From NCBI RefSeq assembly GCF_018977255.1, contig NW_024704742.1, positions 92,692,001-92,756,000 on the forward strand: a DNA stretch of 64,000 nt, given 5' to 3'. The notes beneath the pieces are model-generated. The model did not search any database, had not been told where the DNA came from, and saw only the letters and a list, made by a program, of their open reading frames with translations. Source of the DNA: Callorhinchus milii. Its lineage: Eukaryota. The position numbers and the translations under genes were made by a program. Every line of letters begins with the position of its first letter. Within the stretch, counting starts at the first letter, position 1. Positions 18,701-62,743 of the stretch are shown in pieces.

Positions 18701-21700
18701 CACCATCATCGACAAAGTGATCTCGGACCATCACTTCATCTCCCTTAACTCCTCAATCCCTCTCCTCACTGCCACCCAAACCACCTCCATCTCATACTGC
18801 ACCTGGAAAAAAAATATCCCCCCCCCACCCCTCCCTCTCAGCTGCCTTGGAGTCATCTGAACTCCTTCCACCCTGGGCTTCTTCCCGCAATGACCTATCC
18901 TCCTGGGTCACCCTTCTCCACAGCTCTGTTTCCTCCACTCTTGATTCCCTCGCTCCCCTCTCTTCCTGAGCCATCTCCTACTCACACAAATCACCTTGCC
19001 ACACCAGCCACCTCCGCTCCCTTAAAGCCCAGGCATGTTCCGCTGAGCACACCTGACTTAAATCAAACCTAACTGTCCATCAGCAGATTTGACTGGACAA
19101 TCTTGGAGGCGAAGGACAACCCCAGGCTCCTCTTCTCCATCACGAACTGACTCCTCCACCCACCATCTCGCGCCTCACCCATCTTCACCTCAAATGCCAA
19201 ATGCGAGGTGATGCTGGACTTCCTCAAAACCAAAGTTGAGGGAATCCACTCAGCTGCCTCTGCCACTGCATCTACTAACCCCTCCCCATCTCCTCCTCCC
19301 ACTGCAGCCTTTACCCACCCCTCCCGCCACACCTTTTAACCTGTCTCCCTCTCCTCTCTCATCACCACCATAACCCGTACGAAACCCACCACCTGCTCCC
19401 TCGGCCCCATCCCTAACCCCCTCCTTACCTCCCAGCTCCACCTCCTTGCCCCTCTACTCACTGATATTGTTAACCTCTCCCTGTCCTCTGGTACTGTTCC
19501 CACCCCTTTAAAAATCACTGTCATCATTCCTATCCTTAAAAAAACCCTCCCTGGACACTTCTCTACTCTCTAACTACCGCCCCATCTCCAACCTCCCCTT
19601 TCCTAAGTCCTGGAACGAGTTGTTGCTTCTCAGCTTCGCTCCTTCCTCTCCCGCCACTCCCTTCTCGAACCCCTCCAATCGGGCTTCCGTGCCGCCCACA
19701 GCACAGAAAGACCCCTGGTCAAAGTGACAAATGACATTCTGTCCATCTGCAACCAGGGCTTCCTCTGCCTCCTCTTCCTCCTTTACCTCTCTGCTACTTT
19801 CGACACCATCGACCACTCTGTCCTCATCTACCGCCTTTCCTCTCACCTCAACCTTCACGGCGCTGTCCTTGATTGGTTCAGATCATACCTCTCACACCTC
19901 CTGCACTTCATCTCCTCAAACAGCTTCTCCTCTAACCCCCGGACTGTCTCATGTGGCGTTTCTTAGGGCTCTGTCCTTGGTCCCCTCCTCTTCAATATCC
20001 ATAGGCTCCCCCTCGGTGACATCATCCGCAGACATGGGGTCAACTTCCACTTTTATGTGAATGACACCCAACTCTACCTCTCTGCCTCCACCCTTGACTC
20101 CAAGACCACTGCTGTGCTGACAGAATATCTGTTAGACATCAAGTCCTAGATGAGAGCTAACTTTCTCAGTTGAACGTCAACAAGACCGAGACTCTCCTGA
20201 TTGGTTCCCGTCATCGCCTTCTCACCTCAGACGCTGACAGCATCACCGTCCATGGTTAACACTCCACCTCACTGAGCCAGTCCAGAACCTTGGGGTTTTC
20301 TTTGACCCTCAACTATCCTTTCTACCTGACATCTGTGCCATGACCTGCTCTGCCTTCCCCCACCTCCGCAACGATCGCCCAGCTCCGCCACTGTTTCACA
20401 CCACAGGCCGCCGAAACCCTCATACATGCTTTCATTACATCGGGGCTCGACTATGCAAACTCCCTGCTTGTCGGCCTCCCCTACTCCTCCCTCCATAGGC
20501 TGCAGATCATCCAGAACTCTGCAGCCCGTGTCCTCTCCCGCACTAGGCTCCGTGACCCTGTTTGCTCCTTCCACTCAGCGGGCTCTGGCTTACCACCTTC
20601 AAGACCCACCTCAAGACACCCCTCTTTGACCGTGCTTTCGATCTCCCTGCCTCACCCTCCCTGACCCCGACCCTCAGCTCGGGTCCATAACTCTGTCTGT
20701 TCATCGCCTTGGGACGTCCTCCCGATGTGAAAGGCACTTTATAAATGTAACTTTGTTGTTGTTGTATTTTATCTTTTTTTGAGTGTAAAAGGAGAATTTT
20801 AAGTTTTCTTTAAGTGTCTTAACAAATCCATTTGTAAGTTATAAGTGAGGATGAATACTTTTGCTTACTAAATCTCTTTTGCAACCTCCGGAACATCGCC
20901 AGACTACGGCACTACCTCACCCCTCACGCTGCTGAAACCCTGGTCCACGCCTTTGTCACCTCAAGGCTGGACTATGGGAACTCTCTCCTCGCCGGCCTTC
21001 CCGCCACCTCCCTCCACAAGCTGCAGGTCATTCAGAACTCTGCAGCTCATGTACTGTCCCTCACCAGGCTTCAGGACCACATCACTCCCACCCTCGCTCG
21101 CCTCCACTGGCTCCCCATCCCCCAGAGGATCGAATTCAAGATCCTCATCCTCACCTATAAGGCCATTCACGGCCTTGCTCCCTCCTACCTCTCCGACCTA
21201 CTATACCCCTACTTACCTGCCCGTACCTTCCGTTCCTCCGGCTCCGGTCTGCTCCACATCCCCCGCCCCAACTGCCCTACGATCGGTGGCCGGGCCTTCA
21301 GCCTCTCAGCCCCGAGGCTCTGGAACTCCATCCCCCAGTGCCTTCGCCGCCTCCTCCCTTTCCTCCTTCAAGGCCGGTCTCAAAACCTTTCTCTTTGACC
21401 GTGCCTTCAGCTCCCCTCTCGACTCTCTTCCCCCTCCTCACTCCCTCCCTTCCCTCCCCTCACCCTGACCATTTCCCCCCTGCTCGGGTCCTGACCCAAC
21501 TGTGCAGCGCCTTGGGACGTCCTCCTGACGTGAAAGGCGCTTTATAAATGGAATCTTGTTGTTGTTGTTGATGGTTTTTCGTAAGCATTTATATTTTTCA
21601 AGTTGAATATCTTCAATCTCGGCCATTGAACCACACAGCAGTAATTTTTTTGGTGTTTATTGATAATTCATGTTGAAAATTTTATTTTGCAGGACAATAA

Positions 21701-24057: not shown

Positions 24058-24189
24058 TACTATTAATATTACTCATAGCCATATAGAGGCAATCTATTGT
24101 GAGCAAGAGTGTGGAAGTTGAGGGTTTAGAGATTTAGAGGTCATAGTATGTTAGCTAAATTTGTCGTTTGTTCAGAAGTTTTGCTTAGT

Positions 24190-24234
24190 GTTATTAAAGC
24201 TGTTATCTGAAAGTTATTAAAGCTGTTATCTGAA
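24190..24234 (+). repeat. 23-bp tandem duplication in SEMA4D 3' UTR
   Basis: gttattaaagctgttatctgaa(a) x2. Confidence 0.9.
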
Positions 24235-25708
24235 TCTTGCACACTCAACCTGCATTATATTCAGCCAAACAAAATTGTTTTCATACATCTTCAGTTTTCA
24301 TTCCAAATTGGAAAATATTAATTTATCAAATTGGTAAATTTTTCAAAATACTGTCCAAATTGGAGCACAAATTTGTTTCGTATACTGTATATGTGATTCA
24401 TTCCATGGCTGTTTGTGGGACGTTGCAGTGCACAAACTGGCTGACCCACAAAATACACAGTCACTCCACTTTACAGAAGGTTTTGCGAAGCGCTTTGAGA
24501 CATCTGGATGCTGTGATAAGGCGCTATATCAAACTCAAAGATTATTATTATATTGATATTGCACTGAAAGCTTATGAGTGATATTCTGTTAGAAATATCT
24601 GTAGATAATTGCTGCATCTAATGTAGGTTGATGCGTAAGTTGATACTTTTGTTCATTGCTAATATTCTGCAGACCTCAGGGAACAGTCGAATAATAGATT
24701 TCATGTTTTTTTTAATTCTCTAATTGAAAGAAGAAAAAGAAGGGTTATCTGAATTTCTGATTAGATTTAGATCCTAATCTGCTGCAGTGAAACATAGAGT
24801 CCACAAGACTGATTTATAGAACTAATGCCTTTTTTTTAAAACTAGTACCTTACCATTGGCAGAGTGTTCATTGCCCAAATGCTGTTTCTGAGCCACGGCC
24901 TTAATTATAGGGGCTGCCTGCGTTGAAAGGATTTTACCTGTGGAAGATGTTCGACACTTGCTAAGCACTATCACACTTATAGTCACATTGATACAGCGAT
25001 GGATTTTTAAAGTGGCTGTCATAGTGAGAGAAATGAACACATAATGGTGGGGGGACGGACAAACTCCCTGCTGCATTCCTTAAACAAGAATCTTACAGAC
25101 TACATACATGTTGCAGTTTCTCTCAAGACTTTTTAAAGCCACATAACATGGACTCATGCGACTGACTAGAGCTTTGGAGCCTGTGATTTGCCGCTAAAAG
25201 TACTGAACAATTTTAGTAGCCTGCTGGACTGCATACTGAAAATGTGAGCAACTGGTGCAATTAACCAGCTTTTTAATTTGACATTAATGTGGCAGCTCTG
25301 TATATTTGTATAATTTGCATTTCTGTGCATAACAATTTTTTTTTGTTGTACACCTTCTTTGTTTGCTAATATGTACATGTGCAGAAAGAAACAGGATTTT
25401 GAAATTTGAAAGGAAGTTTTTTGTGTAGAGCTAAATTGATGTGGTACTTTAATAGTGTAAACCGGTTCGAATGTATGAAAACTTGTATATAAAACTATTT
25501 TCTATTTTTTTAATTGTGTAAATAGAAGTCAAAGGTTTCAATTGTTGAGTGTTTCCCACTTTGTTAAAATACTAAACATTTGAATGAGCCTCGTTTGTTC
25601 TCAACCTGCCTTCCCACATGTCAGGATTTATGCAAAAACTTAGGTAATACTTCTGTCTGTTCACCAACACTTGTCTTTATCATCTATTAGTGCATGATCT
25701 GTTTCATT

Positions 25709-25752
25709 TATATATAATATATATATTATATATGTGTATATATATATATAAT
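25709..25752. repeat. Imperfect (TA)n microsatellite
   Basis: tatatataatatatatattatatatgtgtatatatatatata. Confidence 0.85.
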
Positions 25753-25796
25753 ATTTTCTTCAGAGCTCTGTTCTTTTGTGCCTTTGTGTCTCACAG

Positions 25797-26012
25797 CCTC
25801 TCCTGTTTTACCTTTTACTCCTCTCGGTTCTTCCTCTCCGTCTCTTGGATCTGATCCACCTCCTTCCCCTGCTATTACCCCATCTGGAGGGTCTTCTCAC
25901 GATTGGTCCAGTGTAGACAGTACAGTGGTCCAGCTGTTAGCCCCACTGCTGAGCGACCAGACACACACTGTGTGTAGCCCTGGATCTGTCCATCTCTTCT
26001 GTCAAGCCATTG
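25797..26012 (+). CDS. SEMA4D: SEMA4D alt exon A ([16 protein letters not shown]...[26 protein letters not shown])
   Basis: tgtctcacag acceptor, ATTG|gtgagt donor; 216 bp; Ig B-strand Cys. Confidence 0.85.
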
Positions 26013-29000
26013 GTGAGTGAGCATCTGCTAACAAGAACGATTTTTACCTTTTTGCACATTTGTTTGGGAGGGGAAAGGGGAGGAAAAAAAGAATTGGTCC
26101 CTTTTACTACTGTGAATCAACTTGTTTTTATCTTGCTAAAGAAGTCTGTTTTGAGTTTGTATATGGGCATGTCAGGTTACAATATTGCAGATGATTGACA
26201 GTACAGAGCCATACCCTGGAGTCTTAGTACAAAAACACTGTAGATCTTAAGACTCCAAAACTATATTCAGTGTTAATAACCGTGTTCTTAGTGAAAACAC
26301 AGTGACCAAGTTTTATAGAGAACTTGATGTGGCTTGTCTCTTGTATCCTTCACTAGGGGCAATGAATCGTTCTTTGATGCTTGGCACCTTACCATAATAT
26401 ATTACTTACTTTTGATCGTCAGCTGAATTATTTTCATAAATGCACAATAAAAGTTGAAATGCAACATTCCCTCGTACGTTTACTAGATGTACATCCCTCG
26501 TACTTTATTTGTTGAACAATGAGTATGGTGCAAACAATGCATGTGTTGATTTTTGCAGGTATCTTAGTTTGATTCATTCATGAACGATGCATCCTCATAC
26601 ACCTCACAAACAATTGTAAATATTTGTTGAAGCAATGTCAAAGGTAGTAGTGACATTGTCAGTTAGGAAGGATTGCCCAACAGGGTTCCCAGTTCCAACA
26701 CCATGACCTTGATCTGTTATGTTTATCAGCTTATATAGTAAATTTGATCACAATGGCTGAATATAATCTCTCAATCTCAAATCATTCACATTTCCAAACA
26801 AATCTTTGTTGTAGTTTTGAAGGTGAGCTCAATTCTGTGAATTAGCTTTTTGTTTTGTTATTCGGTTTATCAAGCCTGCCCTGGTCATATTGGAAGACAC
26901 CAGCCCTTCACATTTGTTCTGGCTATTTCTTTTTCATTTTTTAAAAAAAAACTACCTTCAAAATGAAGCTGAGTATTTTTTCATGAAAGAGGTAGAAACC
27001 ATTGACTTTATGAATCTATGGTCATTTTTAAGCGTTAGCAATTTACTTCTCTCCTGTAATGTTTCTCACCTGGTACCAAGGGAATTGGTTGGAAGCTGTT
27101 CCCAGACACTAGGTATTAATGGATATTGAAACTGAGGAGCACTTGAGACAGACAAGATATTAATGCATATGGAGGTTGGCTTAGTTTGCTACTCAGTTTA
27201 TTCACTGGGGGGGAGGAGTCAATCCCAACCGTCTCCAGCAATTTCCTACAGACAACTATAACCTGACCTCTAACAGTGCTGGGTGGGGGAGGGAGGAAGG
27301 ATGGCACCTGGTTTGCTGTCTGTGTCTTAAACCCCTCATAGAACCTCTCACTTGCAGCCTCCATTTCAATTCACTGTACTCTTTCCTCCACCAATTAATA
27401 AAGGCCCCACACTCACTCTGCAGTGTTATCTGCCAAGGTATGACACAACCATGTAACCCAGGCTTTGTTCTCTCACCCTCCTGGTCCAGGACCCTCCTCC
27501 TGTGAGCCCAAGAGCAGAGAGAGAGAGGCCTCGGGATGGATCAGCTCACAGCTCTAACTCCCTGTCCGCTAGAGGTGCATTACTTGGACCTGCCAACAGG
27601 AAGAGGCGGCACATGAGCATTTGGAATAAGGAAGTCTACTCCAGACTTCTCCTGTAGAGCTAAATGGTAGTTTCCAGACTAGCAGTTCCCTCATTGCCAA
27701 TAATCGTCCAACCGCCCCATGGCATCAGCCACTCCCACTGCACGATATCCACCCTCCAGGCCCATTACCGGGCAGGGATAAACCTTAGGCAAGTTTTCTT
27801 ACTCCGCATGCCTCTGTACCTAACAGTAAGTAGGATCCTGGTTCTTAGCTAATTGGTGGATCGCTTTCTGAGGTAATAATCGCTTTAAAAAAATTAAGTT
27901 ACTCAATCCACGACTGTTTGTGTGGCACTGCTGTACATAATTGACTTCCTTGTTTCACCCACAAAATAACCAGTTAATTCACTTTACTGGATATTCTGTG
28001 AAGCGCTTTGAGATGTCTCAACAACGTGATAAGGCGCTATATCAAATGCAAGGATTATTATTATTACACCATCTTCAAATGCCATCTAGGACCTAGCCCA
28101 GGATGACTTTTCCTTCTGGAGAAGAATACAGCCTCCATTTCATGCCTGGTCAAGAGTACATGTTTGATTGAGAGCAGATTGAAGCTCACTAGCACAAATT
28201 CCACTTCACAATGGAGGTCATATGCCAGAATTCCCGAGGACAGAAATTCCACCTGGTCTTTGACCATTTTAATTTAAAATTTAAGATGGTGCTATGCTAT
28301 ATTGCGGAAAATGCTTAGATTTAATTTGGAGGCTGTTTTTCCCGTTCCTAAAAAGAACTGTCTCCTCAACTAAGACTAGATTTAAACTGTTTCTACAACG
28401 CAACATTTTCAATTTCAAGACAAAATGGTCTTTCAGGCTGAAACTAAGTAGAATTTCAGACCCCCCGGCAGGCAATGCCATGCTGTCCCTTAAGCAATTG
28501 TGAAAGGGGTTTGAGTGATCTCTGTGATCCTGTGCTGTTTCTCGTTCCACTGGATTTTTGATCCTTTGCCCTGGGCTGCTTTGTACAGTATATCAAGTTG
28601 GGCATTAATGAACAGTTTCAGTTGCTTCAATTTGACCTTTTTAAATATTGACTCATTTTGGGAGTATTTTAAGTAACATTACTTTGGCACCATTATTATT
28701 TGTAATATTATTATTAATGATAATATTCCCTGCATTTGACATAGCACCTTATGTCATCCAGATGTCTCCAAGCACTTCACTTCTATAAAGTGGTGTGACT
28801 GTGTATTTTGTGAGCAATTGGGTGAATTCCAATGAACGCAATTGTACTGTGAACCCTGATCACTAATGTGATTACTCACCTAATGCTTCGTTCCCTTTAT
28901 GTGTATTGGCTTTTTGCGCTAAAATAGCCGACTTTCACGCCTAAGTCGCCACCGACATCACTTCCTGCTTCGTACAGGTGCAGGAAGAGACATTTCTGAT

Positions 29001-32000
29001 GACGGGCTTCTTCTCAAAAGAAATTCACTAGATTTACTGTGAAGTGTAGCGGTTGTGTATTTTGCAGGAAAATATAGCAGTCATTTTCACATAGCAATAT
29101 TCCCAAACAGCCATGAAGTGAATGACCAATTTTATTTGGGGGATATTTGGCCAGGACACCGGGGGATACTGCTTTCTCTTTTCAAATAGTGCAATGGGAT
29201 CTTTAATGACCACCCAATCAGGCAGACAGCATGTCAGTTTGATATCTCACCAGAAGAGTGTCAGCTCTGACAATGTATCAATCCTGCAGCACTGCGTTAG
29301 CATCAGTTTAGACAATATGAGTTCCAAGTCCCAATATTTGTCATTGTGAATTGCAGATGTGTTGCCCAACATCAGCTGCGATCGCTTGTCAATATTTAGC
29401 TTTGTGCATGGACGTCTTTTGAGTTCCTGTACTGCCAGATTTGATTGATTTCACTTTCTGGTCATTGACCTTCATTGCGGCCCGTGTTAGAATAGTCTCC
29501 TGTATCTTTATCGCTTCTCTATATTTTGGAAAATTCATGTTATTAATTTGCTATTGAAAACACTAGATTCACTACAACCACAACAACTTGCATTTATATA
29601 GTGCCCTTCATGCGGGGTAGTGTCCCGGAGCGCTTGACATTGACAGAGTTTGATGCCGAGCCAGAGGCAGGGGGGAGGTGACCGAAACCACGATCAAAAA
29701 GGAAGGTCTTTAGGTGGGAATTGAAGGTGGGGAGGGAAGGAGAGAATTCCAGAGTTTTGGGGTGTAGTGGCTGAAAGCACAGCCACTGATGGTGGAATGA
29801 AGATGCCACAGTTTGGTCATGTATCAATGGGTCACAGAATGACAATATTAATTTCTATCCAGAAGTTACAGCTTCCCACTCTGTTGAGTTATTCATGAGT
29901 TACAGCTGGTCGTTAGCTTGTGTTTTATCTACTCCTTTTAATAGGGGACGTTGCGAGAGTGGGAATGAGAGATGAATGTGTTCACACTAGCACAATAAAT
30001 GGTAGTTTTGAGGGAACTGACCTCAAGGTTATCAGATTATTTGCCGTCAGGGGAATGGCCGAATAGCGTCGATAAGGCAGTGATCTCTGTCACTGTGACT
30101 AACACCATCAGGATCTGAAAATAACTAGGTGCAGACATTCCAAAAAGATGTGAATATCTTAAATGTATATCCTCAGCAAGAGGCAATTATGTGTTTAGTT
30201 TTAGTTTTGATTTTAAAGCACAAAGATCTGAATTTTGTGTCTTTCATGCAATTACGAAGTGAGGAGATGTTATTTTCCAATGGATTATTCTTAGTAAAGC
30301 AAAGATGAAATACAGTACCTGACACAGTTTCGATGGAATTAGTATAAAAAAAGGGAAAGTTGTTGCTCACTTTTTAATAAAGCAACATGTTCATAGTTGC
30401 CACAAGGGAAGGTTGTAGCTTTTACAAATCATATTGATGTTCAGCTACTGGCTAGTTACTATTTTGATTGGTGAACTGGAAATGTAAATAGCGTAGACCA
30501 TAATCAGTTCATGATGAAGAAAATAAAAACAATAAGGTAATAATTAGAGTGGTTTCATGAGGTGTCAGTCTGACCCATTTGGTAGCACTCTCACCGCTGA
30601 GTGTGTTCAAGTCTAATGTTGGAACTTGAGATATTAATCCAGGCTGACATTGCAGTGATATTCTGGGGGACCACTGCATTGTCAGAAGTGCAACACATCT
30701 TTCAGGATGTGCGTTAAATTAAAACCCAGTATGGCTGTTCAGGTGGAGATGAAAAGATCCCCCGATACTATTGAGAGTTTATCCTCTTTGGAAGACCTTG
30801 CCGTTTGTGGGACCTTACTGTATGGTTGCCTGTTTACCTACCAATAATAATAGTAATATTTACATTTGATATCATACCTTTCACATTGAGAAGATGTCTC
30901 AGAACTTTTCACAGGATACGCTTTAAAGTGTAGTGACTGTATTTTGTAAGCAAACGCAACACTCAATTTACGCATAGCAACATCTGTAAACAGCCATGTA
31001 GTAAATGACCAAATAGTCACGAGACTTGACAGCAATTACACATAGGGTCCTTTGAGATGTTTTGCCAATATTGGAAAGATATCAAATGCAAAGATTACAT
31101 CATCATCAGAGATCGACGACCAAGTGCAAGAATTGTTTTAACTTTGTATTCTATCCCATGAGGAAAGAGAGGAGAATAGGAGGGGGGAATTAGGAGGGGT
31201 GGGGGCTTTTGTGGAGTATAAACACTGGCAAGGTCTAGTTGGGTCAAATTGCCAGTTTCCATGCTGTAACATTCCACTTTACAATGCTCATCATGGGTGA
31301 GAGCCTCTGAATCAAAAGGTTGCTTTGAGAGAGTAAATGCAGGTGACTGGCATCCGTGCTTTGTGATTAGAGGAAGTGGGCGGGTTTGTAGGGTTTAAGC
31401 AGTTCGGAGCTGTATGGTGGGGCAAAACCTCAGAGGGATTTAAAAGTGAGAATGAGGATCTTGAAATCGATTCTCTGCGGGATGGGGGCCAGTGCAGAAG
31501 TGTGAGGATAATATAACATTGCACCATTTTGCTCAGGTAACAAAACACTTTATTGTTAAGTATCTATGGCAACTGCTGAACGGCAAAGGTCAAGGCATTT
31601 GATCTTTCCAACACAAGTATTACTTGGGCAGAATATATTAGCGGGTCTTTCATGTTTTAATAATAATAACCTTGCTATCCAGCTACCATCTCAAACCTCC
31701 CCTTCCTATCCAAGGTCCTTGAGAGAGCCGTTGCCTCCCAGCTTCACTCTTTCTTCTCCTCCCATTCCCTCCATGAACTCCTCCAATCGGGTTTCTGTGC
31801 TGCCCACAGAACAGAAACTGCTCTGGTCAAGGTCACAAATGACATGTGCGACTAGGGCTCCCTCTGCCTCCACGTCCTCCTTGACCTCTCCGCTGCCTTT
31901 AATACTGTGGACTATTCAATCCTCCTCCACCAACTCTCCCCCCCATCTCAACCTTCAAGGTTCTGTCCTTGACTGGTTCAGGTCCTACCTTTCACACCGC

Positions 32001-35000
32001 CTCCACTTCGTCTCTGCAAACGGCTTCTCCTCCAGCCCCCGCACCGTCTCGTGCAGTGTCCCTCAGGGCTCTGTCCTCAATCCCCTTCTCTTCACCCTCT
32101 ACATGCTCCACCTTGGTGACATCATCCTCAGACATGGGGTAAATTTCCACATGTATGCGGATAACACCCAACTCTACCTCTCTGCCTCCACCCTGAACTC
32201 CAGTACTACTGGCGTCCTGACTGACTGCATGTCCAACATCAAGTCCTGGATGAGCGACAACTTTCTCCAACTCAACGTCAGCAAGACTGAGGCCCTCGGG
32301 CGCTGGCAGCATCAGCCTCCACGCTGCACACTCAACCTCACTAAGCCAGTCAGGAACCTGGGTGTCTTGTTTGACCCTGAACTGTCCTTTCTCCCCCACA
32401 TCCGCGCCATGACCGGCACTGCCTACCACCACCTCCGCAACATTGCTAGACTCCGCCACTGCCTCACCCCTCAGGCTGCCGAAACCCTTATCCATGCATT
32501 TATCACATCAACGCTCGATTATGGAAACTCGTTCCTCATAGGCCTTCCCAACTCTTCACTTCACAGGCTGCAGATCATCCCAAACTCCACAACTCGTGTA
32601 CTCTCACGGACCAGGCTCCGTGACCGCATTACTCCCACCCTCCCCCGACTACACTGGCTCCCCATCTCTCAGAGGATCAAATTCAAGATCCTCGTCCTCA
32701 CTTTCAAGGCCATCCATGGCCTTGCCCCCTCCTACCTCTCTGATCTGCAACTCCCTACCAATTTGCCCACTCCCTCCGTTCAGCGGGCTCTGGTCTGCTC
32801 CATGTCTCCCGCCCGACCATCGGTGGCCGGGCTTTCAGCCTCTCTGCCCCCACACTCTGGAACTCCATCCCACGGTCCCTTCGCCTCGCTTCCTCCTTTG
32901 CCCCCTTCAAGGCCGGTCTCAAGACCCTTTTCTTCGACCGTGCCTTTGGTCGCCATTCCACCTCTCTGCCTTCCCTCACCCCTCCCCCACCCCTCCCCCA
33001 TGCTCGGGTCCTAACCCCTGACTGTTTAGCACTTTGGGACATCCTCCCGACGTGAAAGGCGCTCTATAAATGTAATTTTGTTGTTGTTTTTGCTGCATTT
33101 GATATAGCGTCTTATCATGTCTTCTAGACGTCTCAAAGTGCTTCGCAGGATATATTGTAAAGTGAATTGACTATATTTTGTGGGCGAAATGTGGTAGCCA
33201 ATTGCGCACAGCAGTGTCTTACAAACATTCGTGGAAACAGTTGGGAAACTGAAATACAGTTGTGAAACTGACCTTTTCTCTCTTTGAAATTTAGCAATGC
33301 TTGTCATACTTAGGAGTCTGTTTGCTATTTTCTTCTGTGGTGGAGAGCTTTCATTTTAATTGTGTTGCTTTGCAAACCTGTGTGCATGGCTATTCCCTTT
33401 GTTTAAAGCGTGCTCGTGTTTACACACAGGATTAGTTGGAGAACATTGATTTAAAATTAATAAAAATCTGCAAGACTAGGAACTGGAAGAATATTTCCTC
33501 CATAGAGCAGGGAGTATGTGACATACACTCCCACTGAAGCAATCAATACTACGTCAACTTTAAAAATAAATACCTGTTTAGAAACAGTGGAGTATGAAAC
33601 TTGCAATTTCTAAATGGGAGTGGTGTGAATCAGGACACCTAGTTGTAAATGGGAATGCCTTCTGGGAACAGAGACCACGTCTCATAACCCGTAGGAACTT
33701 TGCTTTGACAGGATCAACTTCAATTATTCCGGTTGTTGGAAGGAATGTTTATTTATTACTCGGACTCCTTATTAAAGAATTCTGTTTGAAATCGCAGCTC
33801 TTTTTGAACCCATGTATTGGAGGTTATAAGACAGGAGCAGACAAAGGTGAAAGTTATTCCATTGCTATTTGCTTATAGGAGTGACAGTGTGTTTTGTGGG
33901 TGAACACAGCAACCAGTTGTGGACAGCAACGTCCCACAAACATCCATGGAGTGAATAACCAATTTTACTTGGAGGGGATTGTTGGCCATGGCATTGGGGG
34001 AAACACCTTTCTCTTTTCAAATAGTGCCATGGGATCTTTAATGCACACCTGAATAGGCAGATAGAATCTTGTTTTTCCGTCTCATCCAAAGTAGGTGTCA
34101 TGTGGAGTCCTGTAGCTCAGTGGTTAGAGCACTCGCTTTGCAAGCGAGAGACCTGAGTTCAATTCCAGGCAGGGCCAAACCTTGGGCCAGTTTCCTTACT
34201 CCACATGTCTAATAATAATCCCTCCAAAACCAAAAACAATAATAAAATTGGCATTTTCAATCTACGACTGTTTGTGGGACATTGCTGTGCGCAATTGGCT
34301 GCCGCGTTCGCCCACAAATTTACAGTCAATTCACTTTACAGTGTGTTCTGTGAAGCGCTTTGGGACGTCCTTCCGACGTGAAAAGCGCTATATCAAATGC
34401 AAGGATTATTATTATTATTATATTATTATTATGGGTACCAGTCGCTACCATTCCTCACATGTGAGCTTGTTCTATGAGGTGTCAGGAAATGTATTAACTG
34501 GAAATTCATCTCACCCGACATTTATACTTCAGCTATGGTCAATTTGAGAGCAGTTAGGAACAAGCGCTTTGGTTATTTCTTGTGCTTTCTAGTTCATTGG
34601 CAGTAAAGCTAATTATAACTGGGGCTGTGTTTCAGATCAGTTAATGCAGCGAAGACCTGGAATCAGCCCTTAGACATTCCTGATCTGCTGCACCATGTGA
34701 TCAATTCACACACACACACACACAGAGGAGACGTGCTAAATATATTTTCTAAGTCTCTTGTATTGAAGTAGGGACCAGATTCTAGAGTAAATACATGGAA
34801 CAATCAGTCCTATTGTATTCTAAACATTGCATATGTTGTAATTGGATGAATGTTGCACTAAGTATCACATAACATGTAATCTTAACAGAATCCAAAATAA
34901 TAACAACAACGTGCATTTATATAGCGCCCTCCACATCGGGCGGCATTTCAGGGCCAATAATATTGACCTTCAAGAGGAAATTAGTTAAACACTTTAAAAA

Positions 35001-38000
35001 GTGTCAGCTTCATGGGAGGTGGGAAAAACGGCAGTTAAGTGGGACTGAAAGGATTGCTCTAGAGGCAGCCAGCAGAGACATAATGGGCCAAATGGCCTTC
35101 TTCTGTGCCATAAATGTCTATGGTTCTATGTCTGTGGTAACGTAAAATCTAACCAGTATCAGGAGCCCCAAGTGCAGCGTGGTGCACTGTAACCGAAAGC
35201 CTTATAATGAGGTCAGTTTATACTTTGATTTGTGTGTGTACAACTCCGATCAAACACTCTGCAATTCACAGACAGTGGAGAGGAACCACAGTGAGTGGAA
35301 GAACTGATGAAACTCGGTGCCAATAGTGATGCAACAAAGTCAACCTTCTCTAGTTTATTCAAAGGATTATTTTAAGAACTACAGAAAAACAAAGTTAAGA
35401 CTGAATTCAATAATGTAGCAAATTTCTGGATGTTCTGAAATGCTAAGAGAATAGAATAAATCTAGTCCCAAGTGGCATTTCTACCCCAGATATCTGTAAG
35501 GAATGGTATTAAGTTTCTAACTTTAAGCATTAAAATTTGATGTCCCTACGTGAAAGGCACTATACAAATGTAATATGTTGTTGATGTACTACAGTATTTG
35601 AACTAGGTCACAAGCTTGTTTCCAGAGCTGTCTGTCACTTGAACTCACTTTCCCTCAGTGGGCTCAGATTCTTTGGGATCTCAGCCAGGTCTCAGTGCAG
35701 AACATCACATGGGAGAGAGGCAATCCACTTCAGGGAAGGGAACCTCCACACAATCCAGCTCATCCCAATGTCCACTGCATGCACATGTTGAGCTCACTGA
35801 GTGGTATTGACTCTTTCAAGAGCAAATTAGATAGATTTCTGTTAGGAAATAACATCTCGGGATGTGACGCATATAGTTTGGGACATGACAAGTGCATGTG
35901 ACTGCCAGGATGGTGGAAGGCAAACTGGTGGACCTGTTTTATCTTGGACTGATAAATAAGAGCAGTAATAATAATTAGCAAAGGGGGGAAAGTTGCAAGA
36001 GAAGTCTACTAACTTACAAACTATATTACATTCCACAGGATTCAGTGATCTGCACTTTATTTGGGAGAGGAATGGGCAAAAGGTGACAAATTCCATTAAG
36101 GACCAATCTCAAGCATTGAGAGACGGGAGGATGCATGTTCTCAGCTGGCTAAAGGACACTATAACTGCTGACACAGAGTATCAATGCTGCGCTGTGTCCA
36201 GGAGAAGAAATGTGGTCTCAAAAGTTCTTATCGTGGTCGAAGGTAAATCATTTAAGTATATTGCATTACTTTCTCCCAGCAATTCTCCAGATAAAATCAG
36301 TCATGATCATTTATGGAACCTTGCTGTGTGTAAACTGGCTGTTGTGCTTTGTCCCAAAAGCAGTCTCTAAACTCTGCAGTGATTACAATGAAGCTTCAAT
36401 GTGATAAGGCTTTATAACAAGGCAGTGTTCTTTTATTTGAGTTAAAGCTGAAACACTGAGCACTCAGTTAGAGAAGCCTATTGGAAGTGACAGCCTATTG
36501 GCCATTAAAATGTACTACTACATGTCCACAGCTTCATTCTACACGATATGCTACAGTACTTTATATGGTAAATACAAAATTGACCCATTTTTATCTCTGA
36601 AACTACACTTCATAAATTCTCTATAGTTTATTCAAACTGTGTTGTGTGTCAGCCTGGCCCAGTTGGTAACACTACTGCTTCTGAGTCAGAAGGTTGTGGG
36701 TCAAGTTCAGGCCTTTACATCAGAACATTGACTTCCTCAATTGGTCATTCACTTGCAGACTGTTTGCGGGATATTTCTATGCACAAATTGACTGCATTTG
36801 CCCACAAAATAGACAAGGTCATACCACTTTACAGTAGATTATAAACTGCAGCGCTTTGAGACATATCAACGATTATCAAATGTAGGGATTATTATTATAT
36901 TATGTATCAAATGCAAAGATATTATTTTTATTTCTTGCAACACTACACTGAGCAATAATTTTCCAAATTCCTATACAAGAAAAAAATTCATAAAACTCGG
37001 ATCAGTTTCACAAATGAAATGCTATTCAGGAAAATGTGATTCCATCACAAGTAATAATGGAAGAGACTTGACAGTTTGGTATGTTGCATTTTACATCTGA
37101 GATTGACGGGATGTACCACATTGTGACAGACAATGCAGCAATTGCAAAAGTCTATTGTTTTCCCTCAAATTTAATTGCTAACAAATCCTCCCTAATTGCT
37201 GTTACACAGGAACTTTTATTCTGAAGAATTTCAGGAATTTTCATTACCCTCAGTGCGAATTGGCAATTCACACAGAAAGGGTTAAACGTGTAAATCCTAG
37301 GCTGGGTGACAAAAGGTATCATGCGAGTCCCTTATCACAATGTTAGATGAATAATTAGATTCTATAGTTTGTGCAGTTTAAAATTATAAAAGAGCACTTG
37401 TTCTGCACTGGTGCAGACTAGAAAAAAATCTCAGATTGGCTTCTGTTAATACTTTTTAGGGTCCTTGTTAATGATGGGAGGGAAAGATTATGATTATGAG
37501 CAATGTTAAGAAAAGAGAAGTGTAATTACAAGGTGCCAACAACTAATAAAATGTTGAGGACAGCTCAATCTTATTCTCATGTTTGAAAGTATATTGCCAA
37601 AACTGTAAGAAATTTATAAATCCAAACCATTTAATTAGTAAGTGTAGGGCAACAATGACAATTTACATATATAGCTGCTCCACATCAGGAGCTGGAGTTG
37701 AGGCAGAGTCGGTGGAGGGGGCAGATTAGGAGAGCAGAGGAAGGAGGAATGGCAGTTTAGGCGGGGGCAGTTTAGGAGAGGGGGAGAGGAAACAGAAACG
37801 GAATAGATAATACTGGAGGATTGAACTTGTCTTATATCAGTTCTGACAAAGGATCATGGACCTGAAACGTTGACTCACTTTCCTTTCTCCATAGATGCTA
37901 CCTGACCCTCTGAGGTTTCCCAGCTCTCTTTGTTTTTGTTTCAGATTCCAGCATCTGCAGTATTTTGTGTTTTGTCTTATATTTGAATGGGTTATGGCTA

Positions 38001-40650
38001 AATCACAGAATCATCCTATCTGTGATGGTGCTAGCTATCACTATTGGAGCTATCAACACTTATCCCATCCTGCTGCTCTTTTGCTATTTTTGTATTTCTC
38101 CACTTACCTTTTATATGTTGTTTTGTGCCCTCGATTACAACAGCAATTTGCAGTAAAACATTCTAACAACTCTGTGCGCAAAGCAATTTCTTCTCATTTG
38201 CTCCTATTTTGAATGATATTCGATACCTCAGTGGCATAAGAACTGAACTAATTTTGCGTACCTTTTGGATTTAGATGCCCTCATTCAAAAGAGGTGGTCA
38301 AAGGAACTGGCAAAGTGGAAGAAGGCAGTGGATGACCACGAGCAAATGATGCAGGCCTGGACCAAGTCATGGGTAGGAATATGAGGATAAACAGTGACAA
38401 GAGTCTCAATCATATTCTCTACTCCTGACATCCTCCTGGCAGCCAACAATCCTCATAAACAATCCAATGTCTTGTATGGAGACACTAAAGTTTTGAGCGA
38501 GAGCAAAATGCTCTTTAACAAATGCAATTTATTTTTTATTTGCTTCCTAACAAACACACTCAGACATCTGTTACTGTATAATAAATCAGCATCCCAGAAG
38601 GGATGTCAGCCTGCATTCTAAACGCGTGTGGGAACTTGCAACATCAAATGGCTGTTTATGGGATATTGCAGGCTGGCTGCCGCATTTGTCTATAACATAC
38701 ACAGTCACTACACTTTATAGTACACCTGTGAAGCGCTTTGAAACATCCTCCCGACATGAAAGGAGCTACATCAAATTTTGGAGGATTATTGGGGTTATTA
38801 TTTAACATTTCTTATTTGCTTCCTAACAACACACTCAGATATCTGTTACTGTATTTAAAAGATACAAAGACGTGCTCGTCAGTCAAAAAAATGTGACCCC
38901 TCCTCAATCAAACCCAACATAAGAATGAAAACATTTTATTCACAAAAATAAGTTGCATTTGTTAAAAAGCATTTTGTTCTCCCTCAAATGTTACACTGAC
39001 TCCATTGAAATACAGTTCCCGACAAAGACAGAAGGGAACTTGACCACACCTTTGGAGATCTGGAACCAGTCATTAGGAGATGTGTCTACATGTGGGTGGA
39101 TGTTCTGGCTGAATTTCCCTTTCTCTTCTTCTGAGAAAGTGCCCTAAACTATTCCAGCCCAAATATCTGAGACTGTGAATCCATCACCAGGTCATTGATT
39201 TGACCACTGCTTCCTGCCAAAGGGTGGAGTGGAGCAGCTGTTGCTTTAACACTCATTTCCCCAATTTGATGTCAGAAGTTCCCACATGCTTTTAGAAAGC
39301 AGGTGACATCCTTCAATAATAATAATAATCTTTGCATTTAGACTAGTGCCCTTTCACGTCCGGAGGACGTCTCAAAGCGCTTCACAGAATTTTAGTGTGG
39401 AGTGACTGTGCATTTGTAGGAAATCCAGTCAGGATTAAGCCTTGCAGAATCTGTATCAGCACACTTATCTTTGCAAGATATATTTTCATATTTCATTTAT
39501 AATGGATCAGCGTGGTTCAATTTGTAGCATTCTCACATCGGGGACCAAGGGTTGTGGGGTCATGTCACACACTTTGGCTTGAAAAACAATGAATTAAGAC
39601 CATTCCACTGACAAAATCTACCCTAGAGACTTGAACTCCTTTATGTAATAGATTGTAAACCTACAGTAGTCAGGAGAGACCCCTGTCTTCTCTACAGGAG
39701 AACAACCAACCACCTCGCCAGACAATAGGAAATCTGTCCCGATACCTCATAGAAACTTTCTGAGGAGCTGCCACTCACCGCTATTGATCCACTAAACACA
39801 AAACAATTACAAGTTAAGTGAGCTGACTGGGTTAGTTGTCAAGCTCTTTTTCTATAGATATCATATCACACTGCACCCAAAGCACACAATAAACCAGCAA
39901 GGAGAAGGTGAGGGGTTTGTTTTTCATGAGTGGAAAATGGTGAATTCCAAACTAAGAAAGTTGCTCTGGTTAGGAATTAGAAGGTGTTCCCATCAAGAGC
40001 ATTTTGGTTGAGTGTATCATCATGGAGAGCAAAACTCCTGTTCTTCCCAATAACTTGCCTCACCCTAACCTCTGAAGAGCATTCTCCACAAAAGTATCTT
40101 GTGCTATAGTACTACATAATGCCAAATTAGGCTTGTGGAGTTGGTTAACCTGCACTTTACGATATATATTCTATGAAGTGCTTTGAAACATACCAACAAC
40201 TTGATAAAGCACAAAATCAAATGCAAAGATTATTCTTATTATTAATAATGCTAAGTGTTGTTGGTAAAGGCCAGGCCATTTTCAAACAGATTCATGCAAC
40301 CATTAGAGAGGAGAGATGTTGCTTTTCTCCACCTGGTGTTGAGATCTGTTAGCCTGGGCTAAAGAATAACAGATTTTTCATCCAAATTAACCTTCATTTA
40401 AATAAATAATAATCCTTGCATTTTATATAACTCCTTATCACATCGCTGAAACCTTTCAAAGCACTTCATAGGAATTACTATTTATTTAGTTGTACTGAGG
40501 TGAAACATGTGATGTTTCTTAACAGATCTGACGATGCATTTCTTAACACGCCATTTAGGTAACATTTCAGAATTTGGTTCACCTCCATTTAACTTGTTTC
40601 TGTTTGACATCTTCTTACAGGGCAGCTGTGAGCACAAGAACCTACAGTGA
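25797..40650 (+). CDS. SEMA4D: Alternative 3' module of SEMA4D (isoform 2 / C9orf164-like): Pro/Ser linker, second Ig domain, Trp-rich helix, no TM
   Basis: Four exons in phase 1-1, 1-1, 1-0, 0-stop, compatible with the phase-1 donor at 22322. Translation recalls human isoform 2 (FLSDQAQHV..YLFCQATG..FVWEKNG..LPDGRAHALSWLQD..EYRC..WTRELSAW..HDRMMQSWRKAWESC). Confidence 0.85.
26446..26451 (+). promoter_or_regulatory. Candidate poly(A) signal AATAAA downstream of alt exon A
   Basis: cacAATAAAagttg followed by T/GT-rich sequence. Confidence 0.35.
29795..30266 (-). repeat. Unclassified ~500-bp dispersed element, copy 2 (inverted)
   Basis: See copy 1. Confidence 0.8.
31680..33090 (+). mobile_element. 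L2 LINE fragment, RT domain to 3' tail
   Basis: [30 protein letters not shown] in ORF 31566-33014; tail. Confidence 0.92.
34104..34431 (+). mobile_element. tRNA-SINE copy
   Basis: Near-identical to 7083-7390. Confidence 0.9.
36039..36242 (+). CDS. SEMA4D: SEMA4D alt exon B ([16 protein letters not shown]...[12 protein letters not shown]...EYQCCAVS...SKVLIVVE)
   Basis: ttccacag acceptor, GAAG|gtaaat donor; 204 bp; Ig C-strand Trp and F-strand YxC. Confidence 0.88.
37839..37970 (+). mobile_element. Penelope-like element terminal fragment, second copy
   Basis: agttCTGACAAaggatcatggacctGAAACGTTgactc.. homologous to 15597-15730. Confidence 0.6.
38275..38372 (+). CDS. SEMA4D: SEMA4D alt exon C ([33 protein letters not shown])
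   Basis: ggatttag acceptor, TGG|gtagga donor; 98 bp. Confidence 0.85.
40621..40650 (+). CDS. SEMA4D: SEMA4D alt terminal exon D (GSCEHKNLQ*)
   Basis: Strong pyrimidine tract cttcttacag; phase 0; matches recalled human ESCSKDTL*; AATAAA downstream at 41391 and 41555. Confidence 0.78.
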   Translation, partial: GSCEHKNLQ

Positions 40651-61700: not shown

Positions 61701-62743
61701 CAAAGATATTTTGGTCACGTAAAGGTCACATTACTCTACCACAAAGAAAGAGAAAGGAAATCAAGCATTCTCTCACAGCACCCCTTAATCTATCACTAAC
61801 AGCCTGAAGGCTATAATCCTGAAATTGCTATGAAAGCCCATTTGCAGTCTTGCAATAGCACACCACAATTATAGGAAAATCCATGGATGGAACATGCCCT
61901 GCTATCCCAGTTGAAAATGCACCAGGAGCAAATTGGTTAAAGAGAGCAAGTGAAGAAAACAGATTATGGAATCACTTCAAATGACCTATTTATTCCAGTA
62001 TATAATCTTTGCTGCTTTCTTTTTTTAAAAAAAGGGTACACAGAATATTTTTGAAGTCAATTCAACAGATTAAAACCTCTCCCACATAAATTCATACCTG
62101 ATAATTCTATGCCTATTATTCTAATACTTGCTGGACCATTTATAATCCTTGGCCAGAACAACGGTATGAATTTTGAAACACATTCCTACCTTTGTGATTG
62201 ATATCCTCACCTTTCTGTAGAAATGCAATTTTGTAATTTAAACTATTTAATCTAGATGTGGGAACTAGTGAATATCTGACACCCCCTACCATGTTTAATC
62301 TACCACCTGAATGCATTTGTAATTGGGAACAATATCCCTTTTCTCTTTTCTGGGCACAAACAATTCTGAGAAAAGAATTGAGGCTGTCGTAAAACCTGCC
62401 AAAAACCAAACAAAAAATGTTGCAAGTTCCCTTGTCACAAAGCCACATTTACCCTAAAAAGATAAATTAACTTTGTAACGTCTTCAGAATGTTAAATCCA
62501 GCAAATATTTATATTTACACAGCTCCTTTCATATCAGGAAATCAGGAAGATATCTCAAAGCGCCTCAAACAGCTGACTCAAAACCCAAACGAGAAAGTGA
62601 CCCAAAGTGTAGTCGAAATACTGTATAGTGTATAAAAAGCTTTTTTAAGTTTATAAGATTCTAATTTATTTTGAAAGGGAATTAGATATTGGAAAAAGGG
62701 AATACTGTATTAAAGGGTAAAGGGAGCAAGTAGATGATTAAGA

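What the first reader, a model, noticed from the sequence alone, without database searches (positions are those of the whole stretch)
25797..40650. Hidden four-exon module that would turn CD100/SEMA4D into a splice-encoded secreted protein with a different Ig domain
Seen: four exons (25797-26012, 36039-36242, 38275-38372, 40621-40650) with canonical splice sites, no internal stops and exactly compatible phases. The first accepts the same phase-1 donor (22322) as the TM exon. The joined product is a Pro/Ser linker, an Ig fold (LFC..FIW.RNG..EYQC) split by a 10-kb intron, and a Trp-rich tail with no hydrophobic segment. Known (from memory): this matches the little-studied human SEMA4D isoform 2 / C9orf164 C-terminus, whereas soluble CD100 is normally attributed to metalloprotease shedding. 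Inference: intact retention in a probable cartilaginous fish implies a pan-gnathostome membrane/secreted switch made by alternative last exons, analogous to secreted versus membrane immunoglobulin, and with its own Ig domain.
Basis: partly seen in the sequence, partly recalled or inferred. Interest (0 to 1): 0.8.

Follow-up and report, generated by a model that had tools for sequence, protein, structure and literature searches.

The report
Annotated secreted-type SEMA4D alternative C-terminus
The four exons are real and encode a deeply conserved, membrane-anchor-free alternative tail of semaphorin-4D (an extra Ig domain plus a tryptophan-striped helix), but it is already in the gene annotations of this fish, of humans and of many other vertebrates, so the open question is its function.

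Summary
The window is the Callorhinchus milii SEMA4D locus. The four exons exist exactly as described: AG/GT borders, open frame, matching phases. They are not hidden. Joined to upstream exons, they reproduce residues 543-849 of NCBI model XP_007898196.1, semaphorin-4D isoform X3. A profile of the module finds 152 proteins, nearly all named semaphorin-4D isoforms, from sharks to primates. These include a cluster holding human NP_001358131.1. Teleost and Xenopus models also carry it.

The module is a disordered Pro/Ser linker, an Ig domain and one long helix with an invariant W-W-H-W-C heptad stripe. It has no hydrophobic segment. It is conserved as well as or better than the canonical Ig.

Annotated C. 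milii and shark isoforms keep the canonical Ig and splice from an inner donor at 23461, not from 22322. Tetrapod short forms do use the donor homologous to 22322. RNA-derived contigs gave only indirect hints of splicing and none at acceptor 25797.

Verdict: observation confirmed, interpretation partly supported, feature already known by annotation, function unstudied in the papers I could search.

The parts
21693..21883 (+). SEMA4D PSI-domain exon (upstream context)
   Evidence: Pfam PSI E 2.5e-10 on the enclosing frame. Acceptor ttgcag|GAC and donor TAG|GTATGT. GT..AG joint 21881>22268 (cut +2) in X8 and X9 contigs.
22270..22322 (+).
   Evidence: Joint 22321>23137 (cut +1) to the canonical exon seen in X8 and X9. 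No joint to 25797 among the 15 of 996 joints shown.
23138..24057 (+). Canonical terminal coding exon: Ig domain, stalk, transmembrane segment, cytoplasmic tail, stop TAA at 24055-24057
   Evidence: Pfam ig E 1.8e-07. Hydrophobic 19-mer scores 3.12. Stop confirmed.
23459..23467 (+). Inner donor AAG|gtaatt (last exon base 23461, phase 1) used by NCBI isoforms X3 and X2 to reach the module while keeping the canonical Ig
   Evidence: The same junction position (after T-Q/K-x-E) is seen in shark, ray, coelacanth and tetrapod long forms.
24058..27033 (+). Region after the canonical stop that is covered by unbroken contigs; it contains module exon 1
   Evidence: X8 contigs 23137-24473 and 24447-27033; X9 contig 24447-26013. 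ATTAAA at 24193 and 24216. Genomic A-run at 26941-26953.
25797..26012 (+). Module exon 1: Pro/Ser linker and first part of the second Ig domain (through the B-strand Cys, LFCQA)
   Evidence: The X9 contig ends at 26013, the place expected for a graph branch at this donor (indirect).
36039..36242 (+). Module exon 2: rest of the second Ig domain (FIW, YQC)
   Evidence: 100% identical to three database proteins. Intron contigs of X8 and X9 start at 36213, 30 letters before the first intron base (indirect).
38275..38372 (+). Module exon 3: helix with the W148/W155/H162/W169 heptad stripe
39698..39763 (+). Further alternative terminal coding exon inside intron 3, used by NCBI isoform X2 (XP_042189171.1) in place of exon 4
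40621..40650 (+). Module exon 4, coding part (GSCEHKNLQ, stop TGA) with the invariant Cys176; the transcript runs on past 41600
   Evidence: The X9 contig starts at 40620 and runs beyond 41600.

Best explanation
The four exons are a conserved, protein-coding alternative 3' module of the semaphorin-4D gene.

Splicing into the module occurs from one of two donors. One is an inner donor in the stalk-coding part of the canonical terminal exon (23461), as annotated here and in other cartilaginous fishes. The other is the exon after the PSI domain (22322), as in tetrapod short forms. Either route removes the transmembrane segment and cytoplasmic tail. What is added is a disordered Pro/Ser linker, a second Ig domain and a roughly 38-residue amphipathic helix. 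The helix a/d heptad positions are hydrophobic and its d positions read W-W-H-W-C.

The product should therefore be a secreted semaphorin (inferred). I also infer that the helix self-associates as a coiled coil and that the final Cys makes an interchain disulfide. This would hold the Sema dimer together without a membrane anchor.

Choice between the membrane and secreted forms would be a contest between cleavage/polyadenylation after the canonical exon and splicing to the distal exons (inferred). Module exon 1 lies inside the transcribed region that follows the canonical stop codon.

Shown: exon structure, identity with annotated isoforms, deep conservation, Ig fold plus helix in a model, and no hydrophobic segment. 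Inferred: secretion, dimerisation, regulation, and which donor this species uses.
For: Exon borders, phases and open frame. Exact reconstruction of residues 543-849 of XP_007898196.1 from window segments.

Distribution. A search with the module region of P0003 found 13 proteins at E <= 0.001, from sharks, rays, chimaera and coelacanth. The module profile found 152 proteins at E <= 0.01. Of the 120 listed, all carry semaphorin-4D-type names except a few unnamed, 'hypothetical' or misnamed entries. The module is present in 136 of 136 fetched proteins. Xenopus and teleost members were named. Human NP_001358131.1 carries the linker, part of the Ig and the tail.

Conservation. C. milii against 10 species: second Ig 44-69% identical, tail 34-73%, canonical Ig 27-49%. 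In 15 taxa there are 29 invariant columns, including C69, W81, Y120, C122 and W148, W155, H162, W169, C176. The 'a' positions are hydrophobic in 15 of 15.

Structure. The AF2 model has mean pLDDT 70.8: beta-sandwich 44-140 and one helix 142-179. Foldseek gives probability 1.0 to Ig domains, with 433 matches at E <= 0.001. No hydrophobic segment.

Identity of the gene. The ectodomain is SEMA4D: 1olz E 1.1e-243, with Sema, PSI and ig Pfam hits.

RNA, indirect only. Contig ends at 26013, 36213 and 40620 fall where de Bruijn-graph branches at the predicted donor, donor and acceptor would lie, in runs X8 and X9. Those runs do contain spliced canonical joints.
Against: None of the module's junctions is among the 15 joints shown of 996, so I have no direct junction read-out for this species.

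Contigs of X8 (24447-27033) and X9 (24447-26013) cross acceptor 25797 unbroken. Contigs of X8, X4 (25798-26216) and X1 (25785-26038) cross donor 26012 unspliced. Many transcripts therefore carry exon 1 as plain continuous sequence downstream of the canonical stop.

The runs are recorded only as 'RNA?' guesses.

Several pipelines model the module as separate short proteins: P0106, P0114, P0140, P0141, P0145, P0177.

Pfam Ig hits of the module alone are below gathering cut-offs: Ig_3 20.8 bits against 30, C1-set 19 against 21.

All supporting proteins except the human NP_ record are computed models. No protein-level or functional study was found.
Confidence: 0.8

Rival explanations
1. The module is transcribed from its own start, as a separate gene or short isoform, and is not joined to the SEMA4D ectodomain.
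For: Stand-alone models exist in pangolin, fur seal, Peromyscus, elephant, a snake and electric eel. X8 and X9 contigs run unbroken through acceptor 25797 from 24447.
Against: In the window the frame upstream of 25797 is closed at 25717 and has no Met between 25718 and 25796. The stand-alone models begin with arbitrary read-through sequence, and I could see no evident signal peptide in them by eye (no predictor was run), although the domain is a disulfide-bonded Ig. The phase-1 entry matches two SEMA4D donors, and the junction positions are conserved from chimaera to mammals. Most fetched models are joined to a Sema domain.
Confidence: 0.07
2. The splicing is real but lies mostly in the 3' untranslated part of canonical mRNAs. 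In that case the module frame is not translated, and the introns serve regulation such as decay or localisation.
For: Exon 1 lies within continuously covered sequence after the canonical stop. The X9 contig that ends at 26013 reaches back unbroken to 24447. So at least some users of donor 26012 may still carry the stop at 24055.
Against: Untranslated sequence would not keep 44-69% amino-acid identity, an intact Ig signature, an exact heptad of invariant W/W/H/W/C and an open frame across cartilaginous and bony vertebrates.
Confidence: 0.08
3. A chance open frame flanked by chance splice-like sites.
For: None beyond the fact that AG and GT are frequent.
Against: Letter-for-letter identity to annotated proteins, and homologues at E down to 1e-84.
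Confidence: 0.01

Closest known systems
Mammalian SEMA4D short isoforms: primate 738-aa models, human RefSeq isoform 3 NP_001358131.1. Transcript NM_001142287.1 is listed as SEMA4D in PMC11595178 table 2, passage seen. That it encodes 'isoform 2' is recalled.
   Same: Homologous linker, second Ig, heptad helix and C-terminal Cys (42-47% identity to the C. milii module). No membrane anchor. Entry in phase 1.
   Different: The mammalian short forms leave from the exon after the PSI domain and drop the canonical Ig. The annotated C. milii forms leave from the stalk and carry two Ig domains. Human isoform 3 lacks most of the exon-2 equivalent.
Shed soluble Sema4D/CD100, the 120-kDa product of proteolytic cleavage (abstracts of PMC3669357, PMC10273054, PMC6173139 from the listing)
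   Same: A soluble form of the same ectodomain (Sema and PSI, with or without the Ig).
   Different: It is made by proteolysis of the membrane form, not by splicing, and it has no second Ig or Trp-striped helix.
Immunoglobulin heavy-chain membrane/secreted switch (recalled textbook case)
   Same: An inner donor in a terminal coding exon splices to downstream exons, in competition with use of the nearer poly(A) site. Alternative C-termini decide membrane against secreted fate.
   Different: The polarity is reversed: here the near end gives the membrane form. Regulation is not shown. Here the distal exons add a whole folded domain.
Class 3 semaphorins (recalled: secreted Sema-PSI-Ig proteins with a C-terminal tail and an interchain disulfide)
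   Same: Works alike in outline: a secreted semaphorin with an Ig and a C-terminal tail bearing a Cys that could link the dimer.
   Different: No homology of the tail was tested or seen. The class 3 tail is basic, this one is a Trp/His heptad helix. The PDB search aligned Sema3A to residues 27-530 only, with no match in the module.

Membership tests
Semaphorin-4D gene (class 4 semaphorin) | Sema domain, PSI domain and Ig domain in that order; closest solved relative is SEMA4D | tested here: met
   Pfam Sema 7.4e-65, PSI 7.7e-10, ig 6.1e-11 on P0003. 1olz/3ol2 SEMA4D at E 1.1e-243 over residues 26-672; the next best hit is Sema3A at 1.7e-108.
Semaphorin-4D gene (class 4 semaphorin) | Canonical form has a single transmembrane segment and a cytoplasmic tail | tested here: met
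   The frame of exon 23138-24057 holds a 19-mer scoring 3.12 ([19 protein letters not shown]), followed by about 110 further residues.
SEMA4D alternative C-terminus of the isoform-2 type | C-terminal module homologous to that of the mammalian short isoforms | tested here: met
   Profile hits E 1e-40 to 1e-56 in mammals, birds and reptiles. 29 invariant columns in 15 taxa.
SEMA4D alternative C-terminus of the isoform-2 type | Joined directly after the PSI-region exon, so that the canonical Ig is replaced | tested here: inconclusive
   Phase and last base fit, and tetrapod short forms have this junction. The NCBI models of C. milii and of the eight other cartilaginous fishes fetched keep the canonical Ig. 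No joint to 25797 was shown. The two UniProt/Ensembl models that skip the Ig have irregular junctions.
SEMA4D alternative C-terminus of the isoform-2 type | No membrane anchor | tested here: met
   Best 19-residue hydropathy is 0.94, inside the Ig core. A GPI signal was not tested.
Immunoglobulin-superfamily domain | Beta-sandwich with B-strand Cys, C-strand Trp and F-strand Y-x-C | tested here: met
   C69, W81, Y120 and C122 are invariant in 15 of 15. AF2 strands span 44-140 with block pLDDT 78-89 over residues 61-140. Foldseek probability 1.0 to B7-H3, beta-2-microglobulin, MHC II and shark UrIg constant-type domains. Pfam scores of the module alone are below the curated cut-offs.
Coiled-coil dimerisation helix with terminal disulfide | Heptad repeat with hydrophobic a and d positions over at least 4 heptads | tested here: met
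   d = W148, W155, H162, W169, C176, invariant in 15 of 15. a = L/F/Y, V/I/A/L, M/I, W/L/M. Single helix 142-179 in the model.
Coiled-coil dimerisation helix with terminal disulfide | Actual self-association and interchain disulfide | not testable with these tools
   Needs non-reducing gels, SEC-MALS or a solved structure.
Splice versus poly(A) switch of the immunoglobulin heavy-chain kind | Inner donor in a terminal exon plus downstream alternative terminal exons | tested here: met
   Donor AAG|gtaatt at 23461 inside the canonical terminal exon. Distal exons at 25797-40650, and another terminal exon at 39698-39763. Usage rests on NCBI models.
Splice versus poly(A) switch of the immunoglobulin heavy-chain kind | Regulated, cell-state-dependent choice | not tested
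   No tissue labels or raw reads were available.

The most novel reading that the evidence does not exclude
Jawed vertebrates have kept a dedicated secretion-and-dimerisation cassette on SEMA4D since before the split of cartilaginous and bony fishes. It consists of a second Ig plus a Trp/His-zipper coiled coil closed by a disulfide. If so, part of the 'soluble Sema4D' measured in body fluids would be a splice-encoded, covalently dimerised protein with its own extra binding surface, rather than a shed ectodomain. Its output would be set by a contest between splicing and polyadenylation, because its first exon sits inside the canonical 3' region.
Probability: 0.3. Interest if true: 0.65.

Novelty: already known. 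Interest (0 to 1): 0.35.

Why it matters
Soluble Sema4D is a studied biomarker. The papers listed explain it by proteolytic shedding. A splice-encoded soluble form with a different C-terminus would differ from the shed form in ways not yet characterised, such as antibody recognition or sensitivity to protease inhibitors. It might also dimerise or bind partners differently.

First, the module is at least as conserved as the canonical Ig from chimaera to mammals. Second, two alternative entry donors, giving a one-Ig and a two-Ig form, are both conserved. Third, the tail is an exact heptad of invariant W/W/H/W/C. These make cheap, pointed experiments possible.

The existence of the isoform itself is already in public annotation, so the finding is not a discovery of a hidden gene part.

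Tried and rejected
(1) The look-up of sequencing runs with exon 1: no RNA holder listed. 14 of 15 rows hold the stretch, all as 'RNA?' guesses or '?'.

(2) Read laying. Only 15 of 996 joints are printed, mostly SINE artefacts, and none of the module's junctions is among them. Parts without cover, and depth differences between contigs, are not used as evidence because the tool warns that depth is one figure per contig. For the record, X9 shows exon-2 contig 191.3 against the next intron contig 10.9, and exon-4 contig 74.6 against 23.5.

(3) Complex prediction, two copies of module residues 44-182: no answer (0.26, mark 0.32). This is not evidence either way.

(4) Pfam on single exons: only a sub-threshold C1-set hit on exon 2.

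(5) Regex classification of isoforms was useless and was replaced by hmmsearch/phmmer.

(6) The search of protein representatives with the module profile. It found 781 hits at E <= 0.001, but the top of the list is dominated by giant multi-Ig proteins matched through the generic Ig part. Only the short whole-module hits were useful; 10 of the 150 listed were named.

(7) Paper searches found no description of the isoform. One search found the accession only in primer tables. One search found C9orf164 only in gene lists. The 'secreted isoform' hit in PMC7843241 concerns netrin-1.

(8) The search of earlier findings: nothing relevant.

(9) The script failed on a stop character and was rerun.

(10) dN/dS could not be computed because no orthologous DNA was available from the collections on offer.

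(11) Chance ORF and stand-alone gene readings were considered and ranked low (see rivals).
Full report
WHAT IS THERE

The window carries no organism label. A search with the translation of the second claimed exon returned three proteins at 100% identity, all semaphorin-4D of Callorhinchus milii, the elephant shark. Upstream frames hold Sema-domain and PSI exons. The annotated protein's best solved relative is human SEMA4D (1olz, E 1.1e-243). On the minus strand at 54.6-55.7 kb lie two L7Ae-domain exons of a neighbouring gene.

CHECK OF THE OBSERVATION

The product is 181 residues. It equals residues 668-849 of P0003 = XP_007898196.1, 'semaphorin-4D isoform X3'. Window segments 22270-22322, 23138-23461 and the four exons give residues 543-849 of that protein exactly. 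A second NCBI isoform (X2, P0135) and UniProt/Ensembl models (P0001, P0002, P0136) also hold the module.

ANATOMY OF THE LOCUS

The canonical terminal exon (23138-24057) encodes the known Ig domain, a stalk, the transmembrane segment and the cytoplasmic tail.

Two phase-1 donors, both ending in G, can feed the module. One is 22322 (ATG|gtaggt), at the end of the 53-nt exon after the PSI exon. The other is an inner donor, 23461 (AAG|gtaatt), in the stalk-coding part of the canonical exon. NCBI's X3 and X2 use 23461, so they keep the canonical Ig and add a second one.

Intron lengths are 2,335 nt (23461 to 25797), then 10,026, 2,032 and 2,248 nt. The 10-kb intron splits the second Ig domain and holds a reverse-transcriptase fragment. 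Isoform X2 ends in another small terminal exon at 39698-39763.

RELATIVES

- A search with the module region of P0003 found 13 proteins in sharks, rays, chimaera and coelacanth.
- A profile of five modules found 152 proteins at E <= 0.01. The 120 listed are semaphorin-4D isoforms of sturgeon, caecilians, axolotl, crocodilians, turtles, birds, squamates and many mammals, apart from a few unnamed or misnamed entries.
- The 90% cluster of the 738-aa gelada protein holds human NP_001358131.1, 'isoform 3 precursor'. That protein carries the linker, the first part of the Ig and the tail.
- Ten short representatives from the exhaustive profile search were named. They include Xenopus laevis and the teleosts Arapaima, Synaphobranchus, Electrophorus, Pleuronectes/Scortum and Salarias.
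- The module is thus found in all major jawed-vertebrate groups sampled. I saw nothing from jawless fishes, which is no evidence of absence.

TWO ENTRY FORMS

hmmsearch and phmmer on all 136 fetched proteins found the module in 136 and the canonical Ig in 31.

- Long forms (about 838-867 aa, two Ig domains) have the junction after a conserved T-Q/K-x-E. This corresponds to 23461 here.
- Short forms (about 729-740 aa) have the junction after G-D-A-x-x-C..., the homologue of 22322.
- Several species have both, including marmot, grey squirrel, turkey and the worm lizard Rhineura.
- The NCBI models of C. milii and of all eight other cartilaginous fishes fetched are long forms. Some start the module at an inner acceptor (GSSHDW) and three skip exon 1 altogether.

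It is plausible here but not shown. The two C. milii UniProt/Ensembl models that skip the Ig have irregular junctions, so I do not count them as RNA evidence.

CONSERVATION AND FOLD

Against ten species carrying both Ig domains, the C. milii second Ig is 44-69% identical and the tail 34-73%. The canonical Ig is 27-49%.

In 15 taxa, 29 columns are invariant. They include the Ig hallmarks C69, W81, Y120 and C122, and in the tail W148, W155, H162, W169 and C176, spaced exactly seven apart. The positions four residues after each are hydrophobic in 15 of 15. This is an a/d heptad pattern over four heptads that ends in a Cys.

The AlphaFold2 model has mean pLDDT 70.8. It shows a disordered linker (1-43), a beta-sandwich (44-140) and one helix (142-179). 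Foldseek matches constant-type Ig domains at probability 1.0 and about 20% identity. Pfam Ig hits on the module alone stay below the curated cut-offs. The module has no hydrophobic segment (0.94 against 3.12 for the canonical exon).

RNA EVIDENCE IN THIS SPECIES

One run search (exon 1 as query) and one laying were allowed. No holder is on record as RNA. Contigs of X8 and X9 do carry the canonical GT..AG joints 21881>22268 and 22321>23137, so they derive at least partly from spliced RNA.

None of the module's junctions is among the 15 joints printed of 996.

For the module, weakly:
- An X9 contig ends at 26013.
- Intron contigs of X8 and X9 start at 36213.
- An X9 contig starts at 40620.
- Allowing for shared letters and a 30-letter overlap, these are the places where graph branches at donor 26012, donor 36242 and acceptor 40621 would fall.
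- X8 and X9 belong to one study.

Against:
- Contigs of X8 (24447-27033) and X9 (24447-26013) cross acceptor 25797 without a break.
- Contigs of X8, X4 and X1 cross donor 26012 unspliced.
- Exon 1 therefore lies inside sequence transcribed continuously after the canonical stop. Splicing into 25797 was either rare or absent in what was kept.
- Contigs show presence, not absence.

HOW IT MOST LIKELY WORKS

Shown: a conserved coding module without a membrane anchor, annotated as part of SEMA4D.

Inferred: the product is secreted. The amphipathic Trp/His helix forms a coiled coil whose last d position, Cys176, makes an interchain disulfide. This would stabilise the semaphorin dimer that plexin signalling needs (the last point is recalled, not tested). 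The choice between the membrane and secreted forms would depend on whether the pre-mRNA is cleaved after the canonical exon or spliced onward. That resembles the immunoglobulin heavy-chain membrane/secreted switch, with reversed polarity.

RIVALS

- A stand-alone gene is suggested by separate short models in several genomes. Those models start in read-through sequence, and I could see no evident signal peptide in them by eye. In the window, the frame upstream of 25797 has no Met.
- Purely untranslated 3'-UTR splicing fits the contig continuity but not the protein-level conservation.
- Chance is excluded.

COMPARISON WITH WHAT IS KNOWN, AND NOVELTY

The isoform is in RefSeq and UniProt for this species, for humans and for more than a hundred other vertebrates, so the feature is already known. 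NM_001142287.1 is listed as a SEMA4D transcript in PMC11595178 (table 2, passage seen).

Abstracts of papers on soluble Sema4D attribute it to proteolytic cleavage (PMC3669357, PMC10273054, PMC6173139; listing). Eight searches of the held library found no paper that describes or tests the splice-encoded form. Subscription journals are not covered.

VERDICT

Observation confirmed. Interpretation partly supported: right on homology, on the lack of an anchor and on deep conservation; wrong on 'hidden'; unproven on the donor and on 'replaces the Ig' in this species. Interest is moderate-low (0.35). It is an annotated but functionally neglected isoform, with some sharp, testable features.

Noticed in passing
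window 54656-54991 and 55355-55699, minus strand: Two exons with Ribosomal_L7Ae-family matches (E 1.6e-07 and 1.7e-09). This is a convergent neighbour gene. By recall it resembles SECISBP2, the human neighbour of SEMA4D; no tool named it.
   Followed up: partly
window 39698-39763, plus strand: A further alternative terminal coding exon ([21 protein letters not shown], stop TGA) inside intron 3. NCBI isoform X2 (XP_042189171.1) uses it, replacing the Cys-bearing end of the tail.
   Followed up: partly
window 31560-33011 and 62734-63609, plus strand: Long open frames with reverse-transcriptase matches (PF00078; E 2e-12, and 3.9e-06 below the cut-off). These are LINE remnants, and one sits in the 10-kb intron that splits the second Ig domain.
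   Followed up: partly
window 22021-22242, 34101-34421, 24444-24551, 27957-28064 and others: SINE-like repeat copies, 75-96% alike. They attract very high contig depth and produce most of the 996 'joints' in the laid runs.
   Followed up: partly
window 24058-27033: Unbroken contigs of X8 and X9 extend about 3 kb past the canonical stop. The only AATAAA or ATTAAA hexamers found between the stop and exon 1 are ATTAAA at 24193 and 24216. A genomic A-run at 26941-26953 lies near where cover drops. The true 3' ends are unknown.
   Followed up: partly
window 18001-20000: GC 0.55 with GC skew -0.55 and long overlapping Pro/Ser/Thr-rich open frames in all three plus-strand frames. This lies in the intron upstream of the PSI exon. 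The repeat type was not determined.
   Followed up: no
proteins P0140, P0287, P0141, P0145, P0177, P0106, P0114 (other species): In Peromyscus, elephant, a snake, electric eel, pangolin and fur seal the module is modelled as a separate short protein, or 'uncharacterized LOC', starting in read-through sequence upstream of exon 1.
   Followed up: partly
window 36199: A C>T difference in one X9 contig within exon 2 is synonymous, TCC to TCT, Ser.
   Followed up: yes
window 7817 and 22712: Single N letters in the assembly. 22712 lies in the intron between donor 22322 and the canonical exon.
   Followed up: no
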